A DNA stretch of 17,311 nt from Oligoflexia bacterium (lineage in GTDB: Bacteria; Bdellovibrionota; UBA1018; CAIMNF01): assembly GCA_903845155.1 (NCBI GenBank), contig CAIMWN010000287.1:1-17311 (forward strand). Direction: 5' to 3'. Every line of letters begins with the position of its first letter. Position 1 is the first letter of the stretch. Position numbers and translations under genes: made by a program. Shown piece after piece: positions 2,893 through 15,642 of the stretch. The notes below the pieces were generated by a model, which saw only the letters and a program-made list of their open reading frames with translations, was not told the DNA's origin and made no database searches.

Positions 2893-3612
2893 ATGAAGAA
2901 CTGTATCATCGTTTTCTTATTGATTGCCTCAATACATACCGCTTATGCAGATGATTCTGCGGCCACGCTTAAAAATGAATCGGAAGCAGGAGTAGTGGTC
3001 ACCGGCGGAAACACGCAAACCGATACCATTTCACTGAAGGAAAAAACGGCGTACGAATGGAATAAGAATATTGTAAAGTTTGGTGCAAACTTCTTAACAA
3101 CTTCCAATGCCGGAAATCAACAGGCCTACCAGTGGGGCCTTGGCCTTCGTTATGAACGCGAGTTATCAGATCAAATTGGTATCTTCCTTGGTCAAGCCGT
3201 GGAAAGTAATAAGTATCAAGGTATCCTTCAGCGCTACAATTCAGACTTAGGTGGCAGATATACTTTTGTAAAAACAGAACAGTTTAAGTGGGCCTCGGAG
3301 TTAGGTTATCGTTTTACTCGTGAGAATTACACCTTGGATGGCTTCAAAAATATAAACTTTTTGCGACTTTATAACGAGCTGGAGAGAATGTTTACGAAAA
3401 CATTTACGATCAAGTGGTGGATTGAGTTTCTACCTAATATTACCACTTCTGAGGCCTATCAGCTCAACACAGAGCTTTCGGGTAGTGCTGCTATATCAGA
3501 AATGTTTTCGATGAAGGCGGGTTATTTGATTAAGTACAACAATCAACCACCTGTTGGGGCTATTTACAAAACAGATTCCATGTTTACCACTGCCCTCGTC
3601 GCTAAGTTCTAG
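2893..3612 (+). CDS. DUF481-family (YdiY-like) outer membrane protein
   Basis: Signal peptide MKNCIIVFLLIASIHTAYA. The remainder is typical of DUF481 beta-barrels: AGVVVTGGNTQTDTISLKEKTAYEW, LGLRYERELSDQIG, LGYRFTRENYT, and a terminal Phe (TTALVAKF). Confidence 0.8.
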   Translation: MKNCIIVFLLIASIHTAYADDSAATLKNESEAGVVVTGGNTQTDTISLKEKTAYEWNKNIVKFGANFLTTSNAGNQQAYQWGLGLRYERELSDQIGIFLGQAVESNKYQGILQRYNSDLGGRYTFVKTEQFKWASELGYRFTRENYTLDGFKNINFLRLYNELERMFTKTFTIKWWIEFLPNITTSEAYQLNTELSGSAAISEMFSMKAGYLIKYNNQPPVGAIYKTDSMFTTALVAKF

Positions 3613-4583
3613 AAACAATGCCCTAAACTCACTAAGCCATTGGTTCCATCAAGTCCCTCATAATTCGCGGTCCCGCATCCGGTGAATACGAGCGTCTCTG
3701 TCGTTCCATTCATTTTTGCCCCTAGTGTGCTCGGGGTTACTCCACTGATTGTTGAAAAAGTGGTCGTAATGGTACCAGAGGTTGGAGTACAGCACCCAGC
3801 CTTGAATGCAACATTAGTGAAGCTAGATGATGCTTTGAGATGTGCCAAATTATGAAATGTGATGACCGTTCCCGAAGTAATTGTATTACCGTTTGAAATC
3901 ACGAGAGGCGATCCACCTGCATTAGTGGTCACTGTGTGTCTGAATCGGGTACTATTTAAATTTAATCCAGCGATCGCAATCTGTGTCCTGAGGCCTCCTG
4001 AAAAACTCACCGTTGTTCCTCCGCTATACACATTTCCATCTGCAGCCGTGGCGGCGCCGGTGGTATCAATGATTACGCCTACACCTGCTGCTGATGTACG
4101 CGAAGTGCCTAAGGAAAAAGTTCGAGTAACACTAGACATGGCACTCGGGAATGCGCTTCCACAAACGGGAGTCGCGCCCGTAAATGCCACAAACTGTGTT
4201 CCGTTCCAAACGGCAGCTGAAGATGAATAACTACAATTCGAATAAGTGAGGGTTGCAGTGTTTGCAGATACAGAGCAGTTAGCAACGGTACCACTCGCAA
4301 TCGTCGGACACGTAGTTCCGGCTTCTGCGTTTTTAAGCGGCAAAAATGCATCTAAGAATGAGCACATTTTTGATTCAGATTTCTGATCGATCCAAAAGTT
4401 TGCCAATGTGCCACCTGAGGAGCCATTAGCTGCACCACCCACTGCTGCGGCAACGGTCCCCGAAGTAGATGCATCATCCGTAGATGCTGCGGTCGTGGCT
4501 TTGCCACAAGCAGATGTGAATCCAATGAGGATGGTTAAAGATAGAAAAGATAGAATAGTCTGAAAATTCGTAATAAAATACAT
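3609..4583 (-). CDS. Hypothetical exported protein or lipoprotein, Ser/Thr/Gly-rich with several Cys
   Basis: The N-terminus MYFITNFQTILSFLSLTILIGFTSACG is signal-like with a weak lipobox (TSAC). An AGAGG Shine-Dalgarno sequence lies 5 nt upstream of the ATG at 4583. The ORF track starts at a GTG at 4589 that abuts this Shine-Dalgarno sequence. No family recognised. Confidence 0.65.
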   Translation of the reverse strand: MYFITNFQTILSFLSLTILIGFTSACGKATTAASTDDASTSGTVAAAVGGAANGSSGGTLANFWIDQKSESKMCSFLDAFLPLKNAEAGTTCPTIASGTVANCSVSANTATLTYSNCSYSSSAAVWNGTQFVAFTGATPVCGSAFPSAMSSVTRTFSLGTSRTSAAGVGVIIDTTGAATAADGNVYSGGTTVSFSGGLRTQIAIAGLNLNSTRFRHTVTTNAGGSPLVISNGNTITSGTVITFHNLAHLKASSSFTNVAFKAGCCTPTSGTITTTFSTISGVTPSTLGAKMNGTTETLVFTGCGTANYEGLDGTNGLVSLGHCF

Positions 4584-4695
4584 GCGCACCTCTCATTCTA
4601 GAATACCTATTTAGAAAGAAGTGGGCAATAGATCAAAGTTGCCGAGTAAGTGTGCGAATACTCAATGGTACTTCAAATACAACACATTTAGTTCA

Positions 4696-5559
4696 TTAAA
4701 GATCTGGTGCGACATCGGGGGTAACTGCCGCAGGCGCTGGAACCGCTTTAGTAGCGGAGGCTGGTGCTCTACTTGGATCCTCAGTTGGTACAGCTTCTGC
4801 GGTTGCAGGCGCTGTGACTGGAGTGGTTACAGCTGGGTCCTGTGTGGTTTCAGGATTCTGCGTAATATTACTATTGAGGGGATTTACTTGTCCGGAGCCC
4901 GCGATCGTAGGCGCAAGCGAAATTCCGTATTTTGAAAAAACAGAAGTAGTGGTGACTTGGCCGTTCGTTTTTTGAACTTGAACCCATGGTTCTAAATCTG
5001 AACGCGAATTCTGAACAAAATTGAGGGTACTATCAGGCGTTGGATTCACCTTTTTGAAAAACACCCATTCAGATATTTTTGAATAATAGAGTGCTGCCCA
5101 ACGGAGGTATCTTGAATCTTTATAAACATCAACGTAGGCATTCGCGATGGGGCCCAAAAATCCAAAAGTATCCAAAACCTTTTTCTGACGAGTATTCCAG
5201 GTGGTGTCTCCTTGAATGGTGTCTTGTAGTTTTGAAATTTTAGCATAAAAACACCAGTGCATGCGCTCTGGGTCTTGAGTCACTAACTCTACTGCGCCTT
5301 TTCTAATGTCATCTTTCGATGTGGTGAGTTGACTAAGTTTCTTAAACTCATCGTCACAAGTATCGCCGAATTCCCCAAGCACACCCTTGGGCGCTAAAGG
5401 GCTGAAAAAAATGGCTTTGAGGTCAGCTAGTTCAAATCCCGCTGGATGTGGCACTTTTACATACTCGGGCACCTCAGGCAGCGGAATCTTTTCAGATACC
5501 GTTACTGTGCTTGAGCACCCTGCCAAAAGCATCAAACTAAAAATGCCGTATAGTCTCAT
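4696..5559 (-). CDS. Hypothetical lipoprotein with a C-terminal Pro/Ala/Thr-rich tail
   Basis: MRLYGIFSLMLLAGCSS is a classic lipoprotein signal with an LAGC lipobox. A GAGG Shine-Dalgarno sequence precedes the ATG at 5559. The track's extra 49 N-terminal residues are unlikely to be real. The tail is VTTPVTAPATAEAVPTEDPSRAPASATKAVPAPAAVTPDVAPDL. Confidence 0.75.
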   Translation of the reverse strand: MRLYGIFSLMLLAGCSSTVTVSEKIPLPEVPEYVKVPHPAGFELADLKAIFFSPLAPKGVLGEFGDTCDDEFKKLSQLTTSKDDIRKGAVELVTQDPERMHWCFYAKISKLQDTIQGDTTWNTRQKKVLDTFGFLGPIANAYVDVYKDSRYLRWAALYYSKISEWVFFKKVNPTPDSTLNFVQNSRSDLEPWVQVQKTNGQVTTTSVFSKYGISLAPTIAGSGQVNPLNSNITQNPETTQDPAVTTPVTAPATAEAVPTEDPSRAPASATKAVPAPAAVTPDVAPDL

Positions 5560-5692
5560 AAAATTGATCCTCGCCATTATCCTTATCGTCAAAATATTGA
5601 ATAACGTTAATTTTTTGTCGGATCTTTTTACTAAGTTAATAAGTTTCAAGGATTTAGCCAGTGTGTCCGAAAGGCTCTTTGTGAAGAACTCT

Positions 5693-6829
5693 ATGAAGAC
5701 AATCAATAGTAGCAGTACAAAGTTGGCAGGCGCAGTATTGTTGTTATTTTTAAGCTCAATTCCTAGTGTTTTTGCACAAAAAACGCAAGGTGAGGAGCAG
5801 CCACCTACCCCCAGTTCCAGTGCAAGTGGTGCAAGAAACTTCTATCAAGTGCTGGATGAAGTCCTTTCTGATTTTGAATACGATCTGAAAGCAGGCCAAG
5901 TGATTGGGCTAAAAGATCTCTCTATCAGAAATGTCGTCATGAGTGAAAATATCCCTCCTTCATTTAAATCACATCTAGAACTTTTGGTCTCCGAGCGCAT
6001 TTTAAAAACGACTAAAACGAGAATTGTACACTGTCTCGCCTGTAAGTCTAAAAAGGCAACACTCAATGGAGACAATATGGTGATTTCATCACCAGAATCA
6101 AATTCTTCCGAGCTCCAAAGAATTGCCAAAATGAATGGCATTCAAAACTTTATGGATATCGCTTTCGCCTATCAACCCACGGGCGTGCTTTTATCTTTTA
6201 CCATCTCAGATACAGAAACAGGCACCATGCTTTGGTCTCACAGTTATAATTCTGAGGGCACCCGCGCAGCAGCCCAGCGCCGTGGAGTTGATTTTCAAGA
6301 GCTAGAAGAAGCTAAGGCAAAAATGGAATATCAACCCACCATTCAAATGAAGCCAACGCTCTATACGGTGTTCGCTCCTAAAGCTAACTCTGGTTATGCA
6401 ACGGCTCTTGGATTCGGATTTAGAATGATGGAACGATATGACAATAGGAAAAAAGAAGTTGGATTTGAAATGAATTACTACAAGGACATTCCGTCACTGG
6501 TCGGAGAACCCGGTGCCTCTGCTGATAAAAATAATATTTATACTGGGTTAAACCTCACTTTCCTGTTTATGCATGGATGGGGCTTGTTTGGGGCAGAAGA
6601 GAATTACAATAAAGCGCGTGGAGTTGTTTATGGCGGTATCGGTGGCACGTACGCTTCAGGCTTTCTGGGTGGCCTCATTCGTGGTGCCTATGAGTGGCGC
6701 TTGGCGAAACATTGGGCGGTAACCACCTTTCTTGGTTATCGACCTCAGGCTACTTTGGTTATTTCTTCATCATCAACTGCACCCCTTACGGGTGTAGAAG
6801 GAGGACTCGGTGTTGGATTCCTATTCTAA
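5693..6829 (+). CDS. Exported protein with probable C-terminal outer-membrane beta-barrel; first gene of the motor-like cluster
   Basis: The start at 5693 gives signal peptide MKTINSSSTKLAGAVLLLFLSSIPSVFA. The N-terminal domain contains SERILKTTKTRIVHCLACKS and SFTISDTETGTMLWSHSY, which loosely resembles CsgG/FlgO-type domains. The C-terminal half has alternating aromatic/glycine segments and ends in GVGFLF. The track start at 5387 would overlap the divergent lipoprotein gene and lacks a signal peptide. Confidence 0.75.
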   Translation: MKTINSSSTKLAGAVLLLFLSSIPSVFAQKTQGEEQPPTPSSSASGARNFYQVLDEVLSDFEYDLKAGQVIGLKDLSIRNVVMSENIPPSFKSHLELLVSERILKTTKTRIVHCLACKSKKATLNGDNMVISSPESNSSELQRIAKMNGIQNFMDIAFAYQPTGVLLSFTISDTETGTMLWSHSYNSEGTRAAAQRRGVDFQELEEAKAKMEYQPTIQMKPTLYTVFAPKANSGYATALGFGFRMMERYDNRKKEVGFEMNYYKDIPSLVGEPGASADKNNIYTGLNLTFLFMHGWGLFGAEENYNKARGVVYGGIGGTYASGFLGGLIRGAYEWRLAKHWAVTTFLGYRPQATLVISSSSTAPLTGVEGGLGVGFLF

Positions 6830-7532
6830 ATTTTATAGCGCTCTCATTGCATTGCTGATCGTATCAGCATGTTCAACCGCACAAAGTGTGCAGGAAAAAG
6901 AACAATCACGTATTGAAAATCCCTTTGGAAACTACAATCAAGAAACCAACGACCCAAGTCGCAATATTACTTTTAGAAGTAAAAAAGGTGATCAGGCATT
7001 GGAACTCGAGTTCCCCGAAAAAGGCAACTCCGACATGGTGATTCCGATGAATTCAAAATATCAAAACAACGAACGCACCTCTATCGCTGGAACGGACGAA
7101 GTAGATTATCAATACAAAGACCGCAAGCCTAGCATGGCTGACCGTGAAATTGCCTCCACATTTGGTGGTTCGAAAAATCTTGAAGATGAGTCCAAAAGGC
7201 ATGAGATTGAACAAAATTTAGGATTACAGCCAAGCGACGAAGCTCCCAATATGGATGAAAGCTATCTTGCAAAACTCGACGTAGTAAAACAACTTTTTAG
7301 AACGAAACGTTATGAAGCAGCCATGATTGAGATAGACCAATTGGTTAAGTCTTATCCGACCAATAGCCGTCTCTACGAAATGCGGGGAACACTTTTAGAT
7401 CGCATGGGTTATCAAGACCTTGCGTTACGCTCGTGGAAACAAGCGATAGAGCTTGATCCAACGCGAGTGACATTAAAGAAGACTATCGAAAAACGTGAGC
7501 AACAAAGAAGTGTTGCGTCTGAGAGGAAGTAA
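6810..7532 (+). CDS. Lipoprotein with C-terminal TPR-like repeats
   Basis: Lipobox in SALIALLIVSACSTAQ. TPR-like segment VKQLFRTKRYEAAMIEIDQLVKSYPTNSRLYEMRGTLLDRMGYQDLALRSWKQAIELDPT. A perfect AAGGAGG at 6798-6804 precedes the GTG at 6810 (or the TTG at 6813), inside the end of the upstream gene. Confidence 0.8.
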   Translation: MLDSYSKFYSALIALLIVSACSTAQSVQEKEQSRIENPFGNYNQETNDPSRNITFRSKKGDQALELEFPEKGNSDMVIPMNSKYQNNERTSIAGTDEVDYQYKDRKPSMADREIASTFGGSKNLEDESKRHEIEQNLGLQPSDEAPNMDESYLAKLDVVKQLFRTKRYEAAMIEIDQLVKSYPTNSRLYEMRGTLLDRMGYQDLALRSWKQAIELDPTRVTLKKTIEKREQQRSVASERK

Positions 7533-9911
7533 ATGATGAAAACCATAATTGCAATTATAGGAATGATGCAAGTAGTGGCCTTTGCCGGACCCTCAACGCT
7601 CGACGTGAAGAAACGGGGTGAGCAAGAAATCAAGCAAATTGTTCAACCGATCCTCACTCAGTACTGTCATGAACAATGCGAAATCATTGGTGCGAGCACT
7701 GAAGTGGATGTTGCCGTTCAAGACGAAGCTACTCCCGGTTTTGAAGACAATGTAGGAAAGGCAACCTTGACTCCGGTTTCAGGTAAAGTGCAAATCCTCG
7801 TGGACAAATTTCTATCAGATACCAAAAGAAAACAAGTAACCGATCTCATCGCTGAACACTTAAAGCAACTCGACTATAGAGTTGAAATTGAAAGCACGAT
7901 TAAGGAATTTCCTCAGCCTGCGGCTTCCGGATATCGCGTAGCTGAACTCCGTGAAAAGGTGACCAGAGACATCAAGGCATCTATGCAAAGTCTGATCAAT
8001 CAATTTTGTGCAGATTCATGTATTTTAGGACAGTTTGATGTGCAAACTGAAGTAGTGAATGCCGATGAAGTCAATTACGGTTCAAGCCAGGATTATTTTC
8101 AAGATGGTCCAGCAGCGATTCGGGTCCGAAATGTGAAGGCGACCGTGATGGTGGATCAATCTCTTCCAAAAGAAGAAGCAGCCGGAATTGTGGAGATGGC
8201 GAAAGTTAAATTAAGCCAATACAAAAATGCCCAGGTGACGAGTGAAGTGATGAATTTTCCGAAAACTTCAAGCATGCTCGCAAAAAATGGAATTTACGGC
8301 AATGGCCGCTATCCAGCGGGCGTTGACGGAAAAAATAGTGAAACCAGTGAATCTAAAGATTCAAAATTAGACGCTAAGAGTGACTCAAAATATGATTCTA
8401 AAACTGATTCGAAGTACGATGCCAAAACTGATTCAAAATACCAATCGTTAACAGACGCTAAAGAACAAACTACGCGCTCTGATGCTCGTTCTGAATCCTT
8501 GAAAAAGAATGAAACGAATAGCAATAGCAATAGCAATAATAATACTGAAAATAAATCTGAGAAATTTGAACGCTTTGAGAAAATTGAGCGCGTTGAAAAT
8601 GGAGATGCCGTTCAACAAGTGCTTGAAAAATTCCGCGTATACGGAATTATTCTTTCTGCGATCATGCTTGCTTTATTATTTAGTTTAGTTGCCATATCAT
8701 TTCGAAGAAACAATTGGGGTGGCGCGAAGGCAACTGATCAGGCGCATTCGCCAAAAGCTGAACAGGGTTCAAAAGGCGCGCCAAGTGCCGAGTCTGGTGT
8801 TCTTACTAGTGACGAGAAATCGGCGCTCATCGGAAAGAGGATTGAAGCCGATCGTCTCTTTAATGACCTTACTCAAATTTTTTCCGAACAGCCTAAAGTT
8901 GCGAAATATGTATTCACTCATGTTTTGACCGAAGAAGGCGTAGAGACTGCCGCCCAGTATTTGGAGATTTTTGGTGAAACCGTAATTATGGATCTGCTTC
9001 GCGATCCCGGTCTTCAGTCTGACTTGTCAGAACTGATGGATTTTTACGCTAAAAATACTTTTGATATTAATGATGATGAGACGTTAATGCTATTGAAGAA
9101 GCTCCATCATCGAACCGTCACCGCCAAAATGCAAGTTCATGGCAGCCGCTCCGCCGTGTTGTTCGATTTCTTGGCAGATATGGATACTCCACAGATTTTT
9201 GAAATGATCAAAAATGAATCGAATACAGTGAAGGCCATTGTCCTCACTCAGTGTGATCAGAAGAAACGTCAGGCTATTTTTGCATCTTATGATGACCATA
9301 ATCGTCTGAAACTGATGACCGAACTTTCTCGCATTGATCATTTACCAAAAAATTATATTTTCAACGTGGCCTCAGCGCTTCGTCGTAAGAAAGCTGAGAA
9401 TCCAAAACTCAATACTGAAGCGCTTCCGGGCACCGATGTGTTGGTCAGTTTCCTTGAAAAGGCGAGTGTGGATACCCAACGCACCATCATTCATCAACTC
9501 ATGTCTTCGGCTGGGGGCGATGTGCTCAATAACTTGAAAGCGAAGCTCGCCAGTGTGGAGACCTTGAGATTTGTGAAGGACGCCCAACTGACTGAAGTAA
9601 TTACCCATGTAAAACATGATGAACTTCTTCAGTTTCTACAGGGCTGTAGTAAGGATGTGCGAGAATCGGTGCTGTCTAAAGCACCGCAAGATCTTGCAGC
9701 TGATCTGAGTGATGGTCTGCAACTTTCTGAGCCGGTCAATCGTGATACCTACATCGCCGTTGAACGTAAGATCATCAATAGAATTAAGGTCCTTGCGAAC
9801 CAAGGGCAGATCAGTCTTACAGAAGTGAATGAACGGATGTTTGCAGAAGAGTTTGGATTTAATCATTCAAACCCTGACGTAACTGAAGTTGGATACGGGA
9901 AGGTAGGTTAA
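7533..9911 (+). CDS. Membrane-anchored FliG-like protein with an exported N-terminal duplicated domain that is possibly FliF-like
   Basis: Signal peptide MMKTIIAIIGMMQVVAFAG, two similar exported domains (CHEQC and CADSC copies), a DSK-rich linker, and one TM helix (VYGIILSAIMLALLFSLVAISF followed by RRN). The C-terminal region aligns with FliG: IFEMIKNESNTVKAIVLTQCDQKKRQAIF matches the middle domain and VITHVKHDELLQFLQGCSKDVRESVLSKAPQDLAADLSDGLQLSEPVNRDTYIAVERKIINRIKVLANQGQI matches the C-terminal domain. A GAGGAAG Shine-Dalgarno sequence precedes the ATG. Confidence 0.85.
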   Translation: MMKTIIAIIGMMQVVAFAGPSTLDVKKRGEQEIKQIVQPILTQYCHEQCEIIGASTEVDVAVQDEATPGFEDNVGKATLTPVSGKVQILVDKFLSDTKRKQVTDLIAEHLKQLDYRVEIESTIKEFPQPAASGYRVAELREKVTRDIKASMQSLINQFCADSCILGQFDVQTEVVNADEVNYGSSQDYFQDGPAAIRVRNVKATVMVDQSLPKEEAAGIVEMAKVKLSQYKNAQVTSEVMNFPKTSSMLAKNGIYGNGRYPAGVDGKNSETSESKDSKLDAKSDSKYDSKTDSKYDAKTDSKYQSLTDAKEQTTRSDARSESLKKNETNSNSNSNNNTENKSEKFERFEKIERVENGDAVQQVLEKFRVYGIILSAIMLALLFSLVAISFRRNNWGGAKATDQAHSPKAEQGSKGAPSAESGVLTSDEKSALIGKRIEADRLFNDLTQIFSEQPKVAKYVFTHVLTEEGVETAAQYLEIFGETVIMDLLRDPGLQSDLSELMDFYAKNTFDINDDETLMLLKKLHHRTVTAKMQVHGSRSAVLFDFLADMDTPQIFEMIKNESNTVKAIVLTQCDQKKRQAIFASYDDHNRLKLMTELSRIDHLPKNYIFNVASALRRKKAENPKLNTEALPGTDVLVSFLEKASVDTQRTIIHQLMSSAGGDVLNNLKAKLASVETLRFVKDAQLTEVITHVKHDELLQFLQGCSKDVRESVLSKAPQDLAADLSDGLQLSEPVNRDTYIAVERKIINRIKVLANQGQISLTEVNERMFAEEFGFNHSNPDVTEVGYGKVG
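8355..8450 (+). repeat. Four imperfect 24-nt in-frame tandem units encoding an (x-D-S-K-x-D-x-K)-type linker
   Basis: Units at 8355-8378 KDSKLDAK, 8379-8402 SDSKYDSK, 8403-8426 TDSKYDAK and 8427-8450 TDSKYQSL, followed by the partial TDAK. Confidence 0.85.
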
Positions 9912-9915
9912 TACT

Positions 9916-10701
9916 ATGAATATTTCATCATTAGTGGGCATTTTTATTGGCATGGCAGTAGTAGGGGCCTCCTTATCTGAGACGGGGATGGATGTTAAAT
10001 TCTTCCTGAACTTTCACGGTTTGGTCATTGTTTGCGGAGGAACGCTGGCGGCAGCGGCCATTAGCTTTCCGCTATCGAAGATTTTTATGCTCGCAAAAGT
10101 ATTTTTCCTGCGACTCGTAGGTAAAAATAAAGTGGATTATCAGGGAACGATTGAGCAAATGTTGGAGTTGAATAAGAAACTTTCATTGGGTTTGGTCGGT
10201 TCACATGAAGCCATTGCGGGAATTAACAATGAATTTTTAAAAGAAGCTGTGACTTTGGTAGCAGATGGAGTGTTGAGTGAAAAAGAGATTAGATGTGTTC
10301 TAGACCAGAGACTGAGAACGATTGAACATCATTATATGCATGAAGCAAATATGTTTAAGGTGATTGGGAAGTATCCGCCTGCATTTGGACTATTAGCAAC
10401 TACACTTGGAATGATCGCACTTCTTCAAAAAATTGGCCAACCCGGTGCCGAAAAACTGATTGGTCCAGCGATGGCAATTGGACTTGTGGGTACTCTCTAC
10501 GGGATTGGTCTTGCCAATTTGCTTTTTTTACCGATATCGGAAGCTCTTGTTGAAAAAACAGAAGAGGAAATTACACTTCGCAAAATGATTATTGAAGGTT
10601 CAGTCCTCTTGAAGCAAAGAGTGAGCCCCGTTTATATGCGTGAGAGCTTAAATTCATTTCTTCTTCCCCGTGATCGCGTGGTTCGTAGAAAGGCAGCGTA
10701 A
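9916..10701 (+). CDS. motA: MotA-like stator / proton channel subunit
   Basis: FLNFHGLVIVCGGTLAAAAISFP, NNEFLKEAVTLVADG, YPPAFGLLATTLGMIALLQKIGQPGAEKLIGPAMAIGLVGTLYGIGLANLLFLPISEAL. This matches the MotA/TolQ/ExbB family with conserved TM prolines. The symbol denotes family, not proven flagellar function. Confidence 0.92.
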   Translation: MNISSLVGIFIGMAVVGASLSETGMDVKFFLNFHGLVIVCGGTLAAAAISFPLSKIFMLAKVFFLRLVGKNKVDYQGTIEQMLELNKKLSLGLVGSHEAIAGINNEFLKEAVTLVADGVLSEKEIRCVLDQRLRTIEHHYMHEANMFKVIGKYPPAFGLLATTLGMIALLQKIGQPGAEKLIGPAMAIGLVGTLYGIGLANLLFLPISEALVEKTEEEITLRKMIIEGSVLLKQRVSPVYMRESLNSFLLPRDRVVRRKAA

Positions 10702-10707
10702 TTTTTT

Positions 10708-11556
10708 ATGGCAGTCATACGTAAGCTTGATCCAAATACTGAAGAGTCAAATGAAGGGCCACCGCCGCCCAAGAAATATGATCGCTTTAATCAAGGCCAC
10801 GACGATTCAAATTGGTTAATTAGTTATGCTGATATGATGACCCTGCTTTGCGTTTTTTACATCATGATGTTCAGTATGGCGAAAATGAATACTGCAGAAT
10901 TTGAAAAGGTGAAGAAAGAGGTCGCACAAAACTTGGGAACCAAGTATGAGTCACCTACCGAGAATCTCGGTAAATATGTCACCAATATTTTAACTGAAAC
11001 GGGTGTAGCAAAAGACGCGACCATGGTGAGCGACGGTGTGAGTGTGAGTATCGCGTTTCACTCGACCCTCTTTTTTGATACAATGAGTGCCGAGATTTCA
11101 CCGCAAGGCCGAGAGATTCTAGAAAAAGTCATTGCTGGGCTGGATGAACATCAAAAGCTAAATAAGAAACATTATAAGATAGTGGTAGAAGGGCATACCG
11201 ATAGCCAAGCGATTGTAGGTGGGCCGTTTCCATCCAATTGGGAATTATCGAGTTCGCGTGCGACTCGTGTGATTAGGTTGTTTTTGGATCGTGGATTTCA
11301 GGCTTCCAATCTTCTGGCGATTGGTTATGCCGATACGCAGCCCGTGGCCGACAGTAGGAATCCTGACGGTACATGGAATGCTGAGAACTTAGGTAAAAAT
11401 AGGCGTGTGGTATTAAGAGTGATGCTCCCTGATGTGGATTCGATACCTTGGAAAGTAGCCCCGTCGGGAGTCAAGAATACTGCTACAACAGCAACTCCAG
11501 TCACGGTGGTTGCGCCCGTTTCTGTTGCCCCGGCCCCTGCGGCTCCGGTCAAATAG
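10708..11556 (+). CDS. motB: MotB-like stator subunit with OmpA-like peptidoglycan-binding domain
   Basis: Channel motif NWLISYADMMTLLCVFYIMMFSMAKMN, with the Asp codon at 10831-10833. OmpA/MotB domain IVVEGHTDSQAIVGGPFPSNWELSSSRATRVIRLFLDRGFQASNLLAIGYADTQPV. Confidence 0.95.
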   Translation: MAVIRKLDPNTEESNEGPPPPKKYDRFNQGHDDSNWLISYADMMTLLCVFYIMMFSMAKMNTAEFEKVKKEVAQNLGTKYESPTENLGKYVTNILTETGVAKDATMVSDGVSVSIAFHSTLFFDTMSAEISPQGREILEKVIAGLDEHQKLNKKHYKIVVEGHTDSQAIVGGPFPSNWELSSSRATRVIRLFLDRGFQASNLLAIGYADTQPVADSRNPDGTWNAENLGKNRRVVLRVMLPDVDSIPWKVAPSGVKNTATTATPVTVVAPVSVAPAPAAPVK

Positions 11557-11689
11557 TTGTCCCTGTTTACCCAGTTGATTTATTAAACTAGGCAAATCAT
11601 TCCCATGGCAGCCCTTGTTTAATAATGAGATTCTGATTCAAGAGTCAGTGGAGATTCCAATTAAACTAAAAAGCAGGGAGCAATACAGG

Positions 11690-11845
11690 ATGTCTACTCC
11701 AAAGGTTAAAACCATACGTACCAGTTCGATCGAGGTGATTGCACTTATCGCATCCCTGTTTTTTCTCGTGGCCGGCATGACTTTGATTTCGAATGGAAAA
11801 AAGATTTATGCAAATCAGCTCAAATTATCCGAGCGAATTAGATAA
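11690..11845 (+). CDS. Small single-TM protein (hypothetical)
   Basis: MSTPKVKTIRTSSIEVIALIASLFFLVAGMTLISNGKKIYANQLKLSERIR contains one hydrophobic helix. The ATG at 11690 lies downstream of a GGGAG-like sequence. The track's in-frame start at 11615 adds a less likely N-terminus. Confidence 0.45.
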   Translation: MSTPKVKTIRTSSIEVIALIASLFFLVAGMTLISNGKKIYANQLKLSERIR

Positions 11846-11851
11846 AAAGTG

Positions 11852-11896
11852 CAAAAAAAACCCCAGTCTCGAATGTTGATACACAAGACTGGGGTT
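11852..11896 (-). terminator. Rho-independent terminator on the minus strand, downstream of tRNA-Asn
   Basis: An 11-bp perfect inverted repeat, AACCCCAGTCT (11859-11869) and AGACTGGGGTT (11886-11896), with a 16-nt loop. On the minus strand it is followed by a T tract (the + strand has gcaaaaaaaacccc). Confidence 0.85.
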
Positions 11897-11970
11897 CCCT
11901 AGGTTGGGTGACTTCTCTAAAGTTGTATTTACGGCCAACACTAAATTTCCAACCAAGTGGTTGGCAAATA

Positions 11971-12045
11971 TGGCTCAGGAGGAGGGATTCGAACCCCCGA
12001 CCAATCGGTTAACAGCCGATTGCTCTACCACTGAGCTACTCCTGA
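11971..12045 (-). tRNA. tRNA-Asn (anticodon GTT), CCA encoded
   Basis: The minus strand reads TCAGGAG TA GCTC AGTGGTA GAGC A ATCGG CTGTTAA CCGAT TGGTC GGGGG TTCGAAT CCCTC CTCCTGA G CCA. It is a complete cloverleaf with anticodon GTT. Confidence 0.96.
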
Positions 12046-12097
12046 ATAGTAATATTTTAAGTAACCAAAAATCGATTCGTTGTCTATACTAAATTTA

Positions 12098-13909
12098 ATG
12101 CACCACAGACGCAATACTCTTCTTATAAATTTACTTTTTTTATTTATATTCGTGGAGAGTCCCATTTTCATTACGCCAGTTCATGCAAAACCTGAGAACT
12201 TAAGCGCACTGCTCCAGAGATGGACGCCACCCGAAGTGAAGAAATCCGTAAAAAAATCACCTAAAAAGAAGGCGGCTCAAGTCGCTTTAGGGGTAGAGGC
12301 CCTTCCTCTGGAGTACTGGATATACTTTGAAGCGAAGGCTGCTTTAGAAAAGAAGTTAGATCTTAAATCAATTGAATCGCTTGAGAAAAGAATTTTAGAA
12401 GTTCGCTTGAATGCAGATACACGTGCGCTCGAAAAGGAATTTGATGAGCTTTTTTATGCGCTCGAAATTAAGCGTGCGGAGAGGCAGGTCAGGCTAAAAT
12501 CGTGGCGCCTAGCCACTCGCTCTTTTACTCACGCCATGAATGCGCTTCATACCTTTAAGTGGATTTATTATTGGAGAGCTGAAACTTCCGATGCTCTGGT
12601 TGCACTCTGCACGCGAAAAGCTAAGGTGAAAGACGATGCCTGTCCGGTCCTTGCAAAAAGGGTAGTTGATGCCTTTCCGAAAAGCGCAACGGAAACTAAG
12701 GTACTAAGGGATTTGCCCGCCATTGAAGCATCCCCCCTGGTTGATGTGGCGACGGCCGACCGCCTTTCTCAGCCTTATCCTGAAAAGACCGAACAAGATG
12801 AAGAGGCTTTTGCAGATGTCCTCGATGATTATCTCAATGGGAAAGATCACGAATTGTTTGAGCACGCGAAACTGTTCATGAACGATTTTCCAAAATCAAT
12901 CTTACGCTTTAGGGCGTTGTTCTTAATGGCCGAGTTTGATTTCAAGTTCAATAGAAAAAAAGACGCCAAAGAAAAATACGATCAAATTATTAGCCAAATC
13001 CCGCTCAGTTATTATGCAGTAGTGGCAGCAGAGCGCAACGGCGTTCAACTCAGGGACCAAGTGAAGAAGGATATGATCAAAGTAGATCTCGATCAACTAA
13101 ACCTTCAGTACCCTGAAAAACAGGCTTTAGTTCGGGCTGAAAGTCTTTATGTGAAGAAACATTATGAAGAAGTCGCATTGGAGCTTGAAACCTTAACGAG
13201 AGTGCGCGCCTACAATCTCGACACCATTTTATATGTGATGGGTCTTGCTCATCAATCCAATCAAGACCTGACTGCATTTAGAATTGCGAACGAATTGATT
13301 CAGCGGAAGTATGATGGTTTACTTGCGAATGAATTCTTGGAAATGATTTTTCCGGATCGGTATTCTGAAGACATTGAACTTTATTCAAAATTAAATAAAA
13401 TCGATCCGCTTTGGGTTATGTCTTTGATGAAGCAAGAGTCGGGTTTTAAGGCACCCATCCTCTCTTCCTCTGGTGCGATGGGACTCATGCAATTGATGCC
13501 TTTTACCGCGCTCGACGTTCAAAAAGATGTGCTCCTTTCATCATTAAAGCAACCATCCAATAATATTTCGATTGGCACTAAATACATTGCTTCGCTTGCG
13601 GAGAAATACAATGGCAACATGGTCTTCGCGCTTGCAGCCTATAATGCAGGCCCAAATCGCGTTGCAAAATGGAAGAAAGACGCGAAACCAAATTGGGGAA
13701 TGACCGAGTTTATAGAATCCATTCCGTATAAGGAAACTCGTGACTATGTGATGTCGATCTTCAGAAATCATTATTGGTATCAGTATCGAAAGGGTCAATC
13801 AGCACAAAGCGTCTTTGATCCCAATTTCGATTTAAAAAGACCAATCGATACCAAAACCGATTCTAAAACTGATGCCAGAGTAGATGTGAAGCTCGAAGCG
13901 AAGAAATAG
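12098..13909 (+). CDS. Soluble lytic murein transglycosylase (SLT domain) with helical N-terminal region
   Basis: A hydrophobic signal follows MHHRRNTLL. SLT motifs: DPLWVMSLMKQESGFKAPILSSSGAMGLMQLMPFTA, with the predicted catalytic Glu codon at 13436-13438, plus NISIGTKYIASLAEKYNGNMVFALAAYNAGPNRVAKW and FIESIPYKETRDYV. The track start at 12080 is a TTG. Confidence 0.9.
   Translation: MHHRRNTLLINLLFLFIFVESPIFITPVHAKPENLSALLQRWTPPEVKKSVKKSPKKKAAQVALGVEALPLEYWIYFEAKAALEKKLDLKSIESLEKRILEVRLNADTRALEKEFDELFYALEIKRAERQVRLKSWRLATRSFTHAMNALHTFKWIYYWRAETSDALVALCTRKAKVKDDACPVLAKRVVDAFPKSATETKVLRDLPAIEASPLVDVATADRLSQPYPEKTEQDEEAFADVLDDYLNGKDHELFEHAKLFMNDFPKSILRFRALFLMAEFDFKFNRKKDAKEKYDQIISQIPLSYYAVVAAERNGVQLRDQVKKDMIKVDLDQLNLQYPEKQALVRAESLYVKKHYEEVALELETLTRVRAYNLDTILYVMGLAHQSNQDLTAFRIANELIQRKYDGLLANEFLEMIFPDRYSEDIELYSKLNKIDPLWVMSLMKQESGFKAPILSSSGAMGLMQLMPFTALDVQKDVLLSSLKQPSNNISIGTKYIASLAEKYNGNMVFALAAYNAGPNRVAKWKKDAKPNWGMTEFIESIPYKETRDYVMSIFRNHYWYQYRKGQSAQSVFDPNFDLKRPIDTKTDSKTDARVDVKLEAKK
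13844..13903 (+). repeat. C-terminal tetrapeptide-like repeats in the transglycosylase (12-nt period)
   Basis: The tail reads IDTK TDSK TDAR VDVK LEAK, five imperfect x-D/E-x-K/R units. Confidence 0.6.
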
Positions 13910-14056: not shown

Positions 14057-15013
14057 ATGCAACGAAAACGCGACTGGGTCTTGTTATCGGGGAGTTATAA
14101 TCCTGCTCTATCACAAAAAATTAGTGACAGACTAGAGCGCCCACTGGGAAAAATTGAAGTGAGACGCTTCAGTGATGGCGAAATCTTCGTTGAGATAAAA
14201 GAAAATGTAAGAGGTCGCGCAGTCTACGTCATTCAAAGTACTTGCGCTCCTGTGAATGACTCGCTGATGGAATTACTCATCATGATTGATGCTCTGAAAC
14301 GCGCAAGTGCGAAGGAAATTAATGTTGTCATTCCTTACTATGGGTACGCAAGACAAGACCGAAAAGTTTCTCCACGCACTCCTATCAGTGCAAAATTAAC
14401 TGCCGATATTCTTACTACTGCTGGTGCAACCCGAGTCGTTTCTGTCGATCTTCATGCCGGACAAATCCAAGGTTTTTTCAATATTCCATTTGATAACTTG
14501 TATGCAATGCCTGTGATTCAAAAATACTTAGAACAAAAAGTAGTTCCCACTGCAGGCGAAATTGTAGTGGTGAGTCCAGATGCAGGTGGCGTGGAGCGTG
14601 CGCGCGCACTCGCAAAGAGATTGAATGCAACCGTAGCCATCATTGATAAAAGAAGGATCGGTCCGAACGTCGCGAAAGCGATGAATATCATCGGGGAAGT
14701 AAAGGGTGCGACTGCGATTATTCTGGATGACATGATTGATACGGCCGGAACCTTAACGGAGGCTGCAAATGCAGTGATGGATCATGGTGCGAAGCGGATT
14801 ATTGCAGCTGCCACGCATGGTGTATTTTCTGGTCCAGCCATTCAACGCATTAATGATTCTAAAATTGAAAAAGTAATTGTGACCGATACTATTCCTCTTT
14901 CACAGATGGCTCAGTCTTCTACAAAAATTGAGCAGCTTTCGGTGGCCCCTCTTTTAGCTGAAGCCATTTATCGAATTCATCACTATGATTCAGTGAGTAG
15001 CCTTTTTACGTGA
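14057..15013 (+). CDS. prs: Ribose-phosphate pyrophosphokinase
   Basis: [66 protein letters not shown] and the PRPP-binding [12 protein letters not shown]. Confidence 0.97.
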
Positions 15014-15035
15014 TTCGAAACAGGGCGGGCTCAGT

Positions 15036-15635
15036 ATGAAGATAGTGGTGGGCTTGGGAAATCCTGGTCAGAAATACGAGACCACTCGCCATAATATTGG
15101 TTTTCTTTGCATCGATTATTTGGTGGACGCATGGAAAGCAAACGGTCCATTTACTAAACATCAGGGTGAGTATTGGCAAACGTCGATCCAAGGCGAACCA
15201 GTAATCTTACTGAAACCGCAGACCTTCATGAATCTTTCAGGACGTTCCCTTGCTCCCTTCTTCCAATTTTATAAATGTAAACCCGAAGACGTCATCGTAC
15301 TCCATGACGAACTAGATTTTGAGCCCAACGAGATTCGGTTCAAAACGGGTGGAAGTCATGGAGGGCACAATGGGCTTCGCTCCATCGACGAATGTCTAGG
15401 ATCCGAGAATACGGCTTACCATCGGGTAAGGCTTGGAATTGGCCATCCGCGAAATTTTAACCTTAAGATGGACGTAGCTGACTATGTGCTAGGGAAAATC
15501 CCCGACCAAGAATGGGCGGAGCTTGAAGATCTATTTAAGAAGGCCCGTGAGGGCATAGAGCTCATATTTTCAGGTAAAATCAAGGAAGCCATGAATAAAT
15601 TCCATGGACGACCGAAGCCCCCTCAAGATAAATAA
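15036..15635 (+). CDS. pth: Peptidyl-tRNA hydrolase
   Basis: MKIVVGLGNPGQKYETTRHNIGF, LLKPQTFMNLSG, VLHDELDFEPNEIRFKTGGSHGGHNGLRSI and YHRVRLGIGHP. Confidence 0.97.
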   Translation: MKIVVGLGNPGQKYETTRHNIGFLCIDYLVDAWKANGPFTKHQGEYWQTSIQGEPVILLKPQTFMNLSGRSLAPFFQFYKCKPEDVIVLHDELDFEPNEIRFKTGGSHGGHNGLRSIDECLGSENTAYHRVRLGIGHPRNFNLKMDVADYVLGKIPDQEWAELEDLFKKAREGIELIFSGKIKEAMNKFHGRPKPPQDK

Positions 15636-15642
15636 CTAAGCT

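What the first reader, a model, noticed from the sequence alone, without database searches (positions are those of the whole stretch)
7533..9911. Putative natural FliF-like/FliG-like fusion in one polypeptide
In flagella, FliF (MS-ring, membrane) binds FliG (switch, cytoplasm) as separate proteins. Here one 792-aa protein has a signal peptide, periplasmic domains, one TM helix at about 8637-8703 and a cytoplasmic FliG-like region. The second periplasmic domain ends VRNVKATVMVDQSLPKEEAAGIVEMAKVKLSQYKNAQVTSEVMNFPK, which loosely matches the FliF ring-building pattern (V-V-x...LS-x-E-Q-...-I-x-x-L-V...V-T-V-x-x-x-P-F). This would be a minimal rotor with the MS-ring and C-ring parts covalently joined.
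Basis: partly seen in the sequence, partly recalled or inferred. Interest (0 to 1): 0.85.

Follow-up and report, generated by a model that had tools for sequence, protein, structure and literature searches.

The report
Non-flagellar FliF/FliG-like rotor with MotAB
One 792-residue membrane protein joins periplasmic domains shaped like those of the flagellar MS-ring protein to a genuine FliG-type rotor domain. It sits in an operon with its own MotA/MotB stator, and the same gene set occurs in flagellum-less myxobacteria, which suggests a flagellar-type motor used for something other than a flagellum.

Summary
ORF 7533-9911 encodes a 792-aa protein with these parts in order: signal peptide, two periplasmic alpha-beta-beta-alpha-beta domains, a roughly 100-aa disordered linker, one TM helix (nt 8637-8702) and a cytoplasmic FliG-like region.

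- **FliG part: solid.** FliG_M and FliG_C pass Pfam cut-offs in 57/57 family members, and solved FliG chains match at E about 1e-12.
- **FliF part: fold only.** The best PDB fold matches of the N-terminal model are Salmonella FliF MS-ring chains (E 5.5e-7), but nothing matches FliF or YscJ by sequence.
The gene lies in a tight five-gene operon: outer-membrane-type protein, TPR lipoprotein, this protein, MotA, MotB. All five genes recur across Bdellovibrionota. A shorter, one-domain version recurs in Cystobacter, Archangium and Aggregicoccus, which are myxobacteria, a group known to lack flagella.
- **Switch features are lost.** The FliM-binding HPQ residues and the MFXF hinge are absent, while an acidic torque helix is kept.

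My best reading (0.55) is a non-flagellar, non-switching rotor/stator module derived from flagellar parts. Its output is unknown. Ring formation and rotation are inferred, not shown. I found no paper describing the family.

The parts
5693..6829 (+). 378-aa partner protein with a signal peptide (..SVFA|Q). It has an N-terminal domain carrying a conserved CxxC motif. The Gly/aromatic-rich C-terminal half ends ...GLGVGFLF, which looks like an outer-membrane beta-barrel. The mechanical ORF 5387..6829 over-extends the gene.
   Evidence: The gene call on the identical contig gives 378 aa. Orthologues at 55-59% identity sit at the same position in L004, L007, L008 and L009, and a Cystobacter homologue matches at E 1e-9. 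The sequences end in F, L or W. No Pfam family matches. The beta-barrel assignment is inferred from sequence only.
6810..7532 (+). 240-aa TPR lipoprotein (lipobox LIVSAC|S). It overlaps the upstream gene by 20 nt.
   Evidence: Pfam TPR_2, TPR_8 and TPR_14 give weak hits at residues 156-218. Orthologues occur in all related loci, and the Cystobacter homologue matches at E 2e-12. The lipobox is read from the sequence.
7533..9911 (+). 792-aa protein that combines FliF-like periplasmic domains, one TM helix and a FliG-like cytoplasmic region (the finding).
7533..7583 (+). Signal peptide or N-terminal anchor (residues 1-17).
   Evidence: Hydropathy peak at residues 1-23 and an AFA|G site. pLDDT is below 50.
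7596..7904 (+). Periplasmic domain 1 (residues 22-124), alpha-beta-beta-alpha-beta. Invariant residues are C45, C49, P68-G69-F70 and F126-P127.
   Evidence: AF2 model, invariant columns, Foldseek match to the FliF ring. This is the only domain shared with the short myxobacterial subfamily.
7920..8252 (+). Periplasmic domain 2 (residues 130-240), a duplicate of domain 1 with an extra hairpin between strands 1 and 2. C159 and C163 are invariant.
   Evidence: AF2 model. Domain 2 aligns to domain 1 of a homologue at E 4e-5. Foldseek matches FliF RBM3/collar chains.
8274..8594 (+). Disordered S/K/N/D/E-rich periplasmic linker (residues 248-354). It includes a 24-nt tandem repeat at 8358-8441 that encodes DSKYDxKT units.
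   Evidence: pLDDT is below 50. Composition, tandem repeat.
8559..8615 (+). Highly conserved charged motif next to the membrane on the periplasmic side, E-x(5)-EKIERVENGDAVQ (residues 343-361).
   Evidence: Invariant residues E349, E352, R353, V354, E355, G357, D358 and A359.
8637..8702 (+). Single TM helix (residues 369-390), followed by RR on the cytoplasmic side.
   Evidence: Hydropathy and AF2 helix 356-392.
8808..9155 (+). Helical region in the position of FliG_N (residues 426-541).
   Evidence: Foldseek aligns about 317-324 columns to full-length FliG chains of 321-328 residues. The profile aligns to Aquifex FliG from residue 64. Pfam FliG_N is weak and found in only 5/57 members.
9192..9401 (+). 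FliG middle domain (residues 554-623). E562 and R600 are kept, and HPQ of the EHPQR motif is replaced by S-x-T.
   Evidence: Pfam 36.5 bits against a cut-off of 25, found in 57/57 members. Column counts.
9522..9818 (+). FliG C-terminal domain (residues 664-762). It includes the acidic torque helix at residues 716-729 (nt 9678-9719).
   Evidence: Pfam 49.9 bits against a cut-off of 23.3. Alignments to T. maritima and E. coli FliG. Column counts.
9916..10701 (+). MotA-type stator A subunit (261 aa), starting 4 nt after the rotor gene.
   Evidence: Pfam MotA_ExbB E 1e-18. NCBIfam MotA/MotP/PomA about 136 bits, below the equivalog cut-offs. The best solved relative is flagellar MotA 9lu9, E 4e-32. 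K87, K88 and E/D98 are conserved in 7/7 Bdellovibrionota sequences.
10708..11556 (+). MotB-type stator B subunit (282 aa) with the channel Asp (D42 in SYADMMTLL), a plug and an OmpA-like peptidoglycan-binding domain.
   Evidence: Pfam MotB_plug E 2e-14 and OmpA E 9e-16. NCBIfam MotD/MotS-like. Sequence.
4696..5559 (-). 287-aa lipoprotein transcribed divergently from the operon. Possibly associated with it.
   Evidence: Homologues lie at the same relative position in L009 (39% identity) and L004 (34%). No Pfam family matches.
11971..12045 (-). tRNA-Asn (GTT) on the opposite strand. It marks the downstream end of the operon.

Best explanation
The gene encodes the rotor subunit of a non-flagellar motor derived from flagellar parts, and the operon carries that motor's own stator.

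**Shown:**
- The cytoplasmic third is a true FliG homologue (middle and C-terminal domains) with a conserved, strongly acidic torque helix.
- It is covalently tied to a TM helix, so the usual FliF-C/FliG-N non-covalent joint is not needed.
- The next two genes encode an intact flagellar-type MotA/MotB stator with the channel Asp, plug, peptidoglycan-binding domain and conserved prolines.
- The five-gene set is conserved in two phyla: OM-type protein, TPR lipoprotein, rotor, MotA, MotB.

**Inferred:**
- The two periplasmic domains are ring-building motifs of the FliF RBM3 / SctJ kind and assemble the protein into a ring.
- MotA pentamers, driven by ion flow and anchored to peptidoglycan by MotB, push on the FliG-like torque helices and turn that ring.
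- The HPQ residues that bind FliM and the MFXF switch hinge are gone, and no fliM or fliN is present. The motor should therefore not switch under CheY control.
- In most lineages, but not in this window, a small cNMP-binding protein is encoded between the rotor and motA genes and is the likely regulator.
- The output passes through the periplasmic ring and long linker to the TPR lipoprotein and the outer-membrane protein.

What is moved is unknown. Both host phyla contain surface-gliding bacteria, so a role in moving a surface or envelope component is my leading guess, but it is only a guess.
For: **FliG homology**
- Pfam FliG_M and FliG_C score above their cut-offs and are found in 57/57 family members.
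- The family profile matches solved FliG chains at E 8e-13 to 6e-11.
- Foldseek's top 10 hits are all FliG.

**Torque helix**
- The positions of E. coli D288 and D289 are acidic in 56/57 and 51/57 members.
- K716 is K or R in all 57 members, and K/R719, E/D720 and E/D724 are also conserved.

**Stator**
- The best solved relatives are flagellar MotA and PomA, at E 4e-32 to 1e-18.
- MotB has the plug and an OmpA-like domain.
- The channel Asp and the prolines are present.

**N-terminal fold**
- Two alpha-beta-beta-alpha-beta domains are predicted at high confidence.
- The best PDB fold hits are FliF MS-ring chains, E 5.5e-7 to 1e-3, followed by PrgK and YscD.
- The order signal peptide, RBM-like domains, TM helix, cytoplasmic FliG equals FliF followed by FliG, which are adjacent genes overlapping by 8 nt in E. 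coli.

**Operon**
- The genes overlap or lie 0-6 nt apart.
- A tRNA on the opposite strand closes the unit.

**Conservation of the module**
- The same order is found in loci L001, L003, L004, L007, L008 and L009.
- All five genes have homologues in one Cystobacter fuscus cluster.

**Independence from flagella**
- The short subfamily occurs in Cystobacter, Archangium and Aggregicoccus.
- That myxobacteria lack flagella is established knowledge, not tested here.
Against: - No sequence-level link exists between the N-terminus and FliF, YscJ or any solved chain.
- Foldseek TM-scores to FliF are low (0.25-0.47), and unrelated alpha/beta folds (MAT, ribosomal proteins, NusA KH) appear at E 1e-3 to 1e-2.
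- A roughly 100-residue disordered linker between the putative ring and the membrane is a poor torque shaft.
- No gene for an axial component such as a rod or export gate is present, so what a ring would turn is unclear.
- Canonical charge pairs are not kept position for position.
  - The position of E. coli FliG R281 is acidic in 56/57 members.
  - MotA has no residue aligned to canonical R88/R90.
- In this window, the position of D289 is Gly.
- One related contig (L009) carries two flagellin genes about 4 kb from the cluster.
- There is no oligomer prediction, no imaging and no genetics.
Confidence: 0.55

Rival explanations
1. **Force transducer, not a rotating ring.** The protein works as a monomer or small oligomer, in the way TonB, TolA or a gliding-motor cargo does. 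The MotAB wheel pushes the membrane-tethered FliG-like domain sideways, like a rack and pinion. The long periplasmic linker carries that pull or lateral movement to the outer-membrane protein and the TPR lipoprotein bound by the N-terminal domains.
For: - The disordered linker of about 100 aa is rich in S, K, N, D and E, and its length varies between homologues. It recalls the periplasm-spanning spacers of TonB and TolA (established knowledge).
- Two conserved envelope partners are present and no axial component.
- The myxobacterial form has only one periplasmic domain.
- Both host phyla contain gliders.
Against: - The best fold matches of the periplasmic domains are ring-forming FliF chains.
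- FliG middle and C-terminal domains, which build rings by stacking on their neighbours, are both retained in all 57 members.
- No known TonB- or TolA-type system uses the cytoplasmic face of MotA.
Confidence: 0.22
2. **Accessory of the ordinary flagellum in Bdellovibrionota.** A membrane-anchored FliG paralogue docks, stores or regulates one of the several MotAB stator sets. It could act as a decoy or parking site, or as an alternative rotor component.
For: - Predatory Bdellovibrio-like organisms carry 1-4 motAB pairs in separate small clusters (PMC11323537).
- Flagellin genes lie near the cluster in L009.
- Sources annotate the protein as 'flagellar motor switch protein FliG'.
Against: - The same five-gene core occurs in Cystobacter, Archangium and Aggregicoccus, and myxobacteria have no flagella.
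- Conserved periplasmic domains with invariant Cys pairs, an OM-type partner and a TPR lipoprotein are not needed for a cytoplasmic decoy.
- The FliM-binding motif is lost.
- The protein scores 62 bits against the 226.7-bit cut-off of the FliG equivalog model.
Confidence: 0.13
3. **Mg2+-sensing or other non-motor use of a FliG/MgtE_N-type helical domain.** The motAB neighbours would be coincidental.
For: Pfam MgtE_N matches residues 637-730 at 28.2 bits and is found in 56/57 members.
Against: - MgtE_N overlaps the stronger FliG_C hit and is a known structural relative of it.
- There is no MgtE channel or CBS domain.
- motA and motB are adjacent in every locus examined in both phyla, even where the gene order differs.
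Confidence: 0.03

Closest known systems
Flagellar MS-ring/rotor pair FliF + FliG with the MotA5B2 stator, including engineered or spontaneous FliF-FliG full-length fusions (PDB 8z4d; PMC6079021; PMC10941966)
   Same: - The order of parts along the polypeptide equals FliF followed by FliG.
- FliG middle and C-terminal domains are present with an acidic torque helix.
- The MotA/MotB is of the flagellar type and has a plug and an OmpA-like anchor.
- The fold of the periplasmic domains is most similar to the RBM2-RBM3 region of FliF.
   Different: - The fusion is natural and conserved in more than 150 sequence clusters.
- Sequence methods detect no similarity to FliF.
- It has two short RBM-like domains with invariant CxxxC pairs instead of RBM1-3 plus a large beta-collar.
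- A 100-aa disordered linker separates the domains from the membrane.
- It has a cleavable-type signal peptide instead of TM1.
- The cluster has no FliM/FliN binding motif, MFXF hinge, export gate, rod, hook or filament genes.
- A version occurs in myxobacteria, which lack flagella.
SctJ (PrgK / EscJ / YscJ), the inner-membrane ring lipoprotein of type III secretion
   Same: The layout is Sec signal, two ring-building-motif domains, a linker and a C-terminal TM helix. PrgK (2y9j_Y) appears among the fold matches at E 4e-3.
   Different: - It has no lipobox.
- Pfam YscJ_FliF does not match.
- It carries a roughly 400-aa cytoplasmic FliG-like extension.
- No secretion-system genes are nearby.
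Other ion-driven 5:2 motors with non-flagellar outputs: AglRQS-Glt (Myxococcus gliding), GldLM (type 9 secretion and gliding), ExbBD-TonB, TolQR-TolA, ZorAB
   Same: A MotAB-family motor is encoded together with envelope-spanning partners. The host phyla include gliders. The MotB-like protein hits generic ZorB/MotB models.
   Different: Those systems couple through the membrane or periplasmic part of the motor and have no FliG. Here the stator is of the flagellar type and its partner is a FliG domain on the cytoplasmic side. MotA gives no ZorA hit, and no ZorC or ZorD is present.
SpoIIIAG and FliF RBM3 (ring-building motifs with an insertion between strands 1 and 2 that forms a beta-collar)
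   Same: In both predicted domains the variable, motif-bearing insertion lies between the two long first strands, which is where the collar is inserted in RBM3 (collar position from established knowledge). 6sd1_A, the RBM3/collar structure, is among the matches.
   Different: The insertion is only about 18 residues. Whether it forms an inter-subunit barrel is unknown.

Membership tests
FliG (flagellar rotor/switch protein) | FliG middle and C-terminal domains (Pfam PF14841, PF01706) above the gathering score | tested here: met
   36.5 bits against 25 and 49.9 bits against 23.3. Found in 57/57 members. Solved FliG chains match at E 8e-13.
FliG (flagellar rotor/switch protein) | Scores as a FliG orthologue (NCBIfam TIGR00207 equivalog cut-off) | tested here: not met
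   62 bits against a cut-off of 226.7, and only model positions 109-329 are matched.
FliG (flagellar rotor/switch protein) | EHPQR motif of the middle domain that binds FliM | tested here: not met
   E562 and R600 are invariant, but H-P-Q is replaced by S-x-T (S563 in 55/57, T565 in 57/57).
FliG (flagellar rotor/switch protein) | MFXF hinge and Gly-Gly linker used in CW/CCW switching | tested here: not met
   The MFXF position reads L-V/A-S-x, and the GG position reads P632-G633, both invariant.
FliG (flagellar rotor/switch protein) | Charged torque helix (E. coli R281, D288, D289) | tested here: inconclusive
   The D288 and D289 positions are acidic in 56/57 and 51/57 members (this window has D and G). 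The R281 position is acidic in 56/57, preceded by K/R in 43/57. The helix is charged and conserved, but its pattern differs from the canonical one.
FliG (flagellar rotor/switch protein) | FliG N-terminal domain that binds the FliF C-terminus | tested here: inconclusive
   Pfam FliG_N is weak (best E 0.009) and found in 5/57 members. Foldseek alignments span nearly the whole length of full-length FliG. The covalent fusion makes the joint unnecessary.
FliG (flagellar rotor/switch protein) | Encoded among flagellar genes (fliF, fliH, fliM, fliN ...) | tested here: not met
   None is present in the window or in the related loci whose gene content was examined (L004, L005-L009, L012). Those loci carry only motA and motB, plus two flagellin genes in L009.
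FliF / SctJ (YscJ_FliF family, PF01514) | Sequence match to the family profile | tested here: not met
   No hit in 24 N-terminal sequences even at E <= 10. hhalign against E. coli FliF gives probability 0.6%. No FliF or SctJ chain appears in the PDB sequence search at E <= 10.
FliF / SctJ (YscJ_FliF family, PF01514) | Ring-building-motif fold (alpha-beta-beta-alpha-beta) in tandem in the periplasm | tested here: met
   Two such domains are predicted at high pLDDT. The top Foldseek PDB hits are FliF ring chains (E 5.5e-7, 5e-6, 4e-4), with PrgK and YscD lower. Caveats: this is a predicted model and TM-scores are low.
FliF / SctJ (YscJ_FliF family, PF01514) | Topology: N-terminal signal or TM, periplasmic domains, TM helix, cytoplasmic tail that joins FliG | tested here: met
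   Two hydrophobic segments only, RR after the TM helix, and four invariant Cys residues in the periplasmic part.
FliF / SctJ (YscJ_FliF family, PF01514) | Assembles into a large homo-oligomeric ring | not testable with these tools
   No multimer prediction or imaging is available.
MotA/MotB flagellar-type stator | MotA_ExbB channel domain with the conserved prolines; MotB with channel Asp, plug and OmpA-like domain | tested here: met
   Pfam. Solved flagellar MotA chains match at E 4e-32. D42 of MotB and P154/155 and P206 of MotA are present.
MotA/MotB flagellar-type stator | Scores as an orthologue of a named flagellar stator (NCBIfam equivalogs) | tested here: not met
   The best MotA model scores 136 bits against a cut-off of 340, and the best MotB-type model scores 132 against 283.
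MotA/MotB flagellar-type stator | Canonical rotor-facing charges (E. coli MotA R90, E98) | tested here: inconclusive
   K87, K88 and E/D98 are conserved in 7/7 Bdellovibrionota sequences, but they lie 1-2 residues off the canonical positions in the HMMER alignment.
Zorya anti-phage system | ZorA together with ZorB and ZorC/D/E | tested here: not met
   Only generic ZorB/MotB hits appear. MotA gives no ZorA hit and no other Zor protein is found.

The most novel reading that the evidence does not exclude
This is a self-contained rotary engine that is independent of any flagellum. A ring of FliF/FliG fusion subunits is turned by its own MotAB stators and coupled through a TPR lipoprotein and an outer-membrane protein to a process at the cell surface, such as gliding, adhesin transport or envelope remodelling. 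It is conserved from Bdellovibrionota to flagellum-less myxobacteria. It would be the first use of the FliG-MotA torque interface outside flagella. It would be either a stripped-down descendant of the flagellar motor core or a surviving relative of it.
Probability: 0.3. Interest if true: 0.92.

Novelty: new variant of a known kind. Interest (0 to 1): 0.8.

Why it matters
As far as I know, the contact between FliG and MotA is known only from flagella. This would be a conserved operon in which a FliG domain, welded to its own membrane anchor and FliF-like periplasmic domains, is paired with a dedicated stator and with envelope proteins but with no secretion gate, rod, hook, filament or switch. 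If so, the flagellar torque generator can exist as a small independent module.

- **Evolution.** It bears on how the flagellar motor evolved, in particular on what a rotor and stator could do before, or without, a filament.
- **Structural study.** It would give a far simpler rotor than the flagellar basal body.
- **Testability.** The short form occurs in culturable myxobacteria (Cystobacter fuscus, Archangium species), so the idea can be tested by genetics and cryo-tomography.

Tried and rejected
- **Sequence link of the N-terminus to FliF or SctJ: none found.**
  - Pfam on 24 members at E <= 10.
  - hhalign against E. coli FliF.
  - Family profile against all PDB sequences.
  - Exhaustive HMMER search of 1.84 billion representatives. 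It found only 156 relatives, all of the same superfamily.
- **Anti-phage (Zorya) reading: rejected**.
- **MgtE-type reading: rejected.** MgtE_N overlaps the stronger FliG_C hit and no channel domain is present.
- **Slt as part of the operon: rejected.** A tRNA-Asn on the opposite strand lies between motB and slt.
- **Promoter and terminator scan.** It found no more than the shuffled controls.
- **Literature.** Seven full-text searches found no description of a membrane-anchored FliG, a natural FliF-FliG fusion, or a myxobacterial MotAB-FliG cluster. The 2025 MotAB phylogeny paper does not mention it. Morehouse 2011 on Bdellovibrio motAB is not held.
- **Orthologue in cultured Bdellovibrio.** None of the named hits is B. 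bacteriovorus, but I could not scan its genome.
- **MAFFT alignment with E. coli MotA.** The cytoplasmic region was unreliable, so I used the HMMER alignments to solved MotA chains instead.


Full report
**1. The observation**

The window carries an ATG-initiated ORF at 7533-9911 (+) of 792 codons. A Shine-Dalgarno-like GAGAGGAAG lies just upstream, and the ATG directly follows the stop codon of the preceding gene.

Hydropathy shows only two hydrophobic segments, residues 1-23 and about 366-392. The first ends in AFA|G, like a signal peptide. The second (residues 369-390, nt 8637-8702) is followed by RR, so the C-terminal part is cytoplasmic.

More than 120 full-length homologues of 740-840 aa exist in metagenome-assembled Bdellovibrionota (Bdellovibrionales, Bacteriovoracia, Oligoflexia). 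More distant forms of about 970 aa occur in Silvanigrellales. The gene is real and its architecture is conserved.

**2. The cytoplasmic part is a FliG homologue**

- Pfam FliG_M (residues 554-623) and FliG_C (664-762) pass their gathering scores, and they do so in all 57 aligned family members.
- A family profile finds solved FliG chains at E 8e-13 to 6e-11.
- A full-length AlphaFold2 model (mean pLDDT 77, with the folded parts mostly above 90) has FliG chains as its ten best Foldseek matches. The alignments run to about 317-324 columns, nearly the whole of FliG.
- It is not an orthologue of the flagellar protein. It scores 62 bits against the 226.7-bit cut-off of the FliG equivalog model.

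Column counts on the alignment, read against the alignments to T. maritima and E. coli FliG, show the following:

| Canonical FliG feature | State in this family |
|---|---|
| EHPQR motif (binds FliM) | E562 and R600 invariant; H-P-Q replaced by S-x-T |
| MFXF hinge | L-V/A-S-x |
| Gly-Gly linker | P632-G633, invariant |
| D288 / D289 of the torque helix | acidic in 56/57 and 51/57 (D and G in this window) |
| R281 of the torque helix | acidic in 56/57, preceded by K/R in 43/57 |

K716 and E/D724 are also conserved. The domain keeps a conserved charged ridge but has lost the features used for FliM binding and for switching.

**3. The periplasmic part looks like FliF only in fold**

The model gives two domains, residues 22-124 and 130-240. 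Each has the order helix, long strand, long strand, helix, strand, which is the order of a ring-building motif.

- Each domain carries an invariant CxxxC pair where helix 1 meets strand 1 (C45/C49 and C159/C163). Each also has an invariant FP just after it, at F126-P127 and F242-P243.
- Domain 1 has an invariant PGF at the tip of the first hairpin.
- Domain 2 is a duplicate of domain 1 (E 4e-5).
- The variable insertion lies between strands 1 and 2. That is where FliF RBM3 and SpoIIIAG carry their collar (position from established knowledge).

A separate model of residues 18-250 (pLDDT 81) has Salmonella FliF MS-ring chains as its best PDB matches: 7bk0_B E 5.5e-7, 6scn_A 5e-6, 6scn_K 4e-4, 6sd1_A RBM3/collar 1e-3. 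PrgK and YscD follow at 4-5e-3.

Caveats on the fold evidence:
- TM-scores are low (0.25-0.47).
- Generic alpha/beta folds follow closely, at E about 1e-3.
- No sequence method sees FliF or SctJ. This covers Pfam at E <= 10 on 24 members, hhalign against E. coli FliF and the profile against all PDB sequences.

So the fold and the topology match FliF or SctJ, but homology is not proven.

Between domain 2 and the membrane lies a disordered stretch of about 100 residues rich in S, K, N, D and E. It is partly encoded by a 24-nt tandem repeat. A nearly invariant motif, EKIERVENGDAVQ, follows just outside the membrane.

**4.

The gene is the third of five tightly packed genes.

| Coordinates | Product | Notes |
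|---|---|---|
| 5693-6829 | 378-aa protein | Signal peptide, conserved CxxC, and a Gly/aromatic-rich C-terminal half ending GLGVGFLF. An outer-membrane barrel is inferred from sequence only. |
| 6810-7532 | 240-aa TPR lipoprotein | Lipobox present |
| 7533-9911 | This protein | |
| 9916-10701 | MotA | |
| 10708-11556 | MotB | |

A tRNA-Asn on the other strand closes the unit.

The stator is of the flagellar type. Its best solved relatives are flagellar MotA and PomA (E 4e-32 to 1e-18). MotB has the plug, the OmpA-like domain and the channel Asp (D42), and MotA has the conserved prolines. Like the FliG part, both subunits score far below the equivalog cut-offs. In MotA, K87, K88 and E/D98 are conserved in 7/7 Bdellovibrionota sequences, within one or two residues of the canonical R and E.

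The same gene order recurs in L001, L003, L004, L007, L008 and L009. Most of the more distant lineages add two genes that this window lacks:
- a 170-aa cNMP-binding protein between the rotor and motA genes;
- a Zn-ribbon/TM/SH3-like protein after motB.

**5. A shorter form in myxobacteria**

An exhaustive profile search with the N-terminal region against 1.84 billion representative proteins found only 156 relatives. There are two groups:
- the two-domain form;
- a 540-620-aa form that matches domain 1 only and carries a weaker FliG_C.

The short form belongs to Cystobacter fuscus, Archangium species and Aggregicoccus. In C. fuscus it lies directly after motA and motB. Homologues of the 378-aa protein (E 1e-9) and of the TPR lipoprotein (E 2e-12) are encoded just upstream.

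Myxobacteria have no flagella (established knowledge). The five-gene core therefore works without a flagellum in at least that phylum.

**6. Mechanism**

*Shown:*
- a FliG-type domain with a conserved charged helix, tethered to the membrane;
- an intact flagellar-type stator, co-transcribed with it;
- two conserved envelope partners;
- loss of the switch features.

*Inferred:*
- The periplasmic domains build a ring.
- MotA pentamers, turning on peptidoglycan-anchored MotB, drive the ring through the torque helix.
- The motor does not switch and is regulated, where the gene is present, by the cNMP-binding protein.
- The output goes to the outer-membrane partners.

I give this rotor model 0.55.

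The main rival (0.22) keeps the FliG-MotA contact but denies a ring. The protein would then be a tethered transducer that the stator pushes sideways or pulls, in the manner of TonB/TolA or a gliding motor. This fits the long floppy linker and the absence of any axial component.

A role as an accessory of the ordinary flagellum (0.13) fits the multiple motAB sets of Bdellovibrio-like organisms (PMC11323537) and the flagellin genes near the cluster in L009. It does not fit the myxobacterial distribution or the conserved envelope partners.

Zorya and MgtE-type readings are rejected.

**7. Comparison and novelty**

- **FliF + FliG with MotAB.** This is the closest known system. Laboratory FliF-FliG fusions assemble rings (PMC6079021, PMC10941966; PDB 8z4d appeared). 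This is a natural, conserved fusion with a divergent, shortened periplasmic part and no other flagellar gene.
- **SctJ.** The N-terminal half has the SctJ layout: signal peptide, two RBMs, TM helix.
- **Other 5:2 motors.** Agl, Gld, Exb, Tol and Zor systems do not use FliG.

Seven full-text searches found no description of the family. I rate it a new variant of a known kind. If rotation and a non-flagellar output are confirmed, it would arguably be a new kind of machine.

**8. Verdict**

Its interpretation passed both of the tests it proposed, but the FliF likeness is structural only and ring formation is untested. Interest is 0.8.

Noticed in passing
window 11971-12045 (-): tRNA-Asn (anticodon GTT) lies between motB and the slt gene, on the opposite strand. 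It separates the five-gene operon from the lytic transglycosylase gene.
   Followed up: yes
window 8358-8441 and 8517-8544: A 24-nt tandem repeat (3.5 copies, encoding DSKYDxKT units) and an (AATAGC)n run (encoding NSNS) lie inside the disordered periplasmic linker. Linker length varies among homologues.
   Followed up: partly
L004 10391-10897; L007 5116-5631; L008 10262-10771; L009 10355-10867: In more distant Bdellovibrionota a cNMP-binding protein of about 170 aa is encoded between the rotor gene and motA. This window lacks it, with only 4 nt between the two genes. It is a candidate regulator of the motor.
   Followed up: partly
L004 12725-13654; L007 7298-8332; L009 12505-13434 (shorter in L008 12390-12731): A protein with an N-terminal zinc ribbon (CPHC...CYKC), one TM helix and a C-terminal SH3-like domain follows motB in other lineages. 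It is absent from this window.
   Followed up: partly
L012 (Cystobacter fuscus CP043491.1) 3511-13370; L011; L010: Myxobacteria carry a short form of the protein with one periplasmic domain (540-620 aa), placed after motA-motB. Further unannotated genes (309, 200, 567, 348 and 171 aa) flank the cluster and have no Pfam family.
   Followed up: partly
L009 1766-3886: Two flagellin genes lie about 4 kb upstream of the cluster in one Bdellovibrionota contig. That organism is therefore flagellated, and the module coexists with a flagellum there.
   Followed up: no
window 4696-5559 (-): A 287-aa lipoprotein with a Pro/Ala/Thr-rich tail is transcribed divergently from the operon. It is conserved at the same position in L004 and L009 and matches no family. 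The mechanical ORF 4696-5706 over-extends it.
   Followed up: partly
window 5387-6829 (+): The listed 480-aa TTG ORF is an over-extension. The gene call on the identical contig starts at 5693 (378 aa, with a signal peptide).
   Followed up: yes
window 3609-4589 (-): A 326-aa Ser/Thr/Gly/Ala-rich putative lipoprotein (..GFTSAC|G) matches no Pfam family.
   Followed up: no
window 48-2285 (+), 2304-2891, 2893-3612, 12080-13909, 14057-16743: The flanks are housekeeping genes: the 3' part of leuS, dcd, a DUF481 outer-membrane protein, slt, prs, pth and ychF. The module is therefore chromosomal and does not lie in an obvious mobile island.
   Followed up: partly
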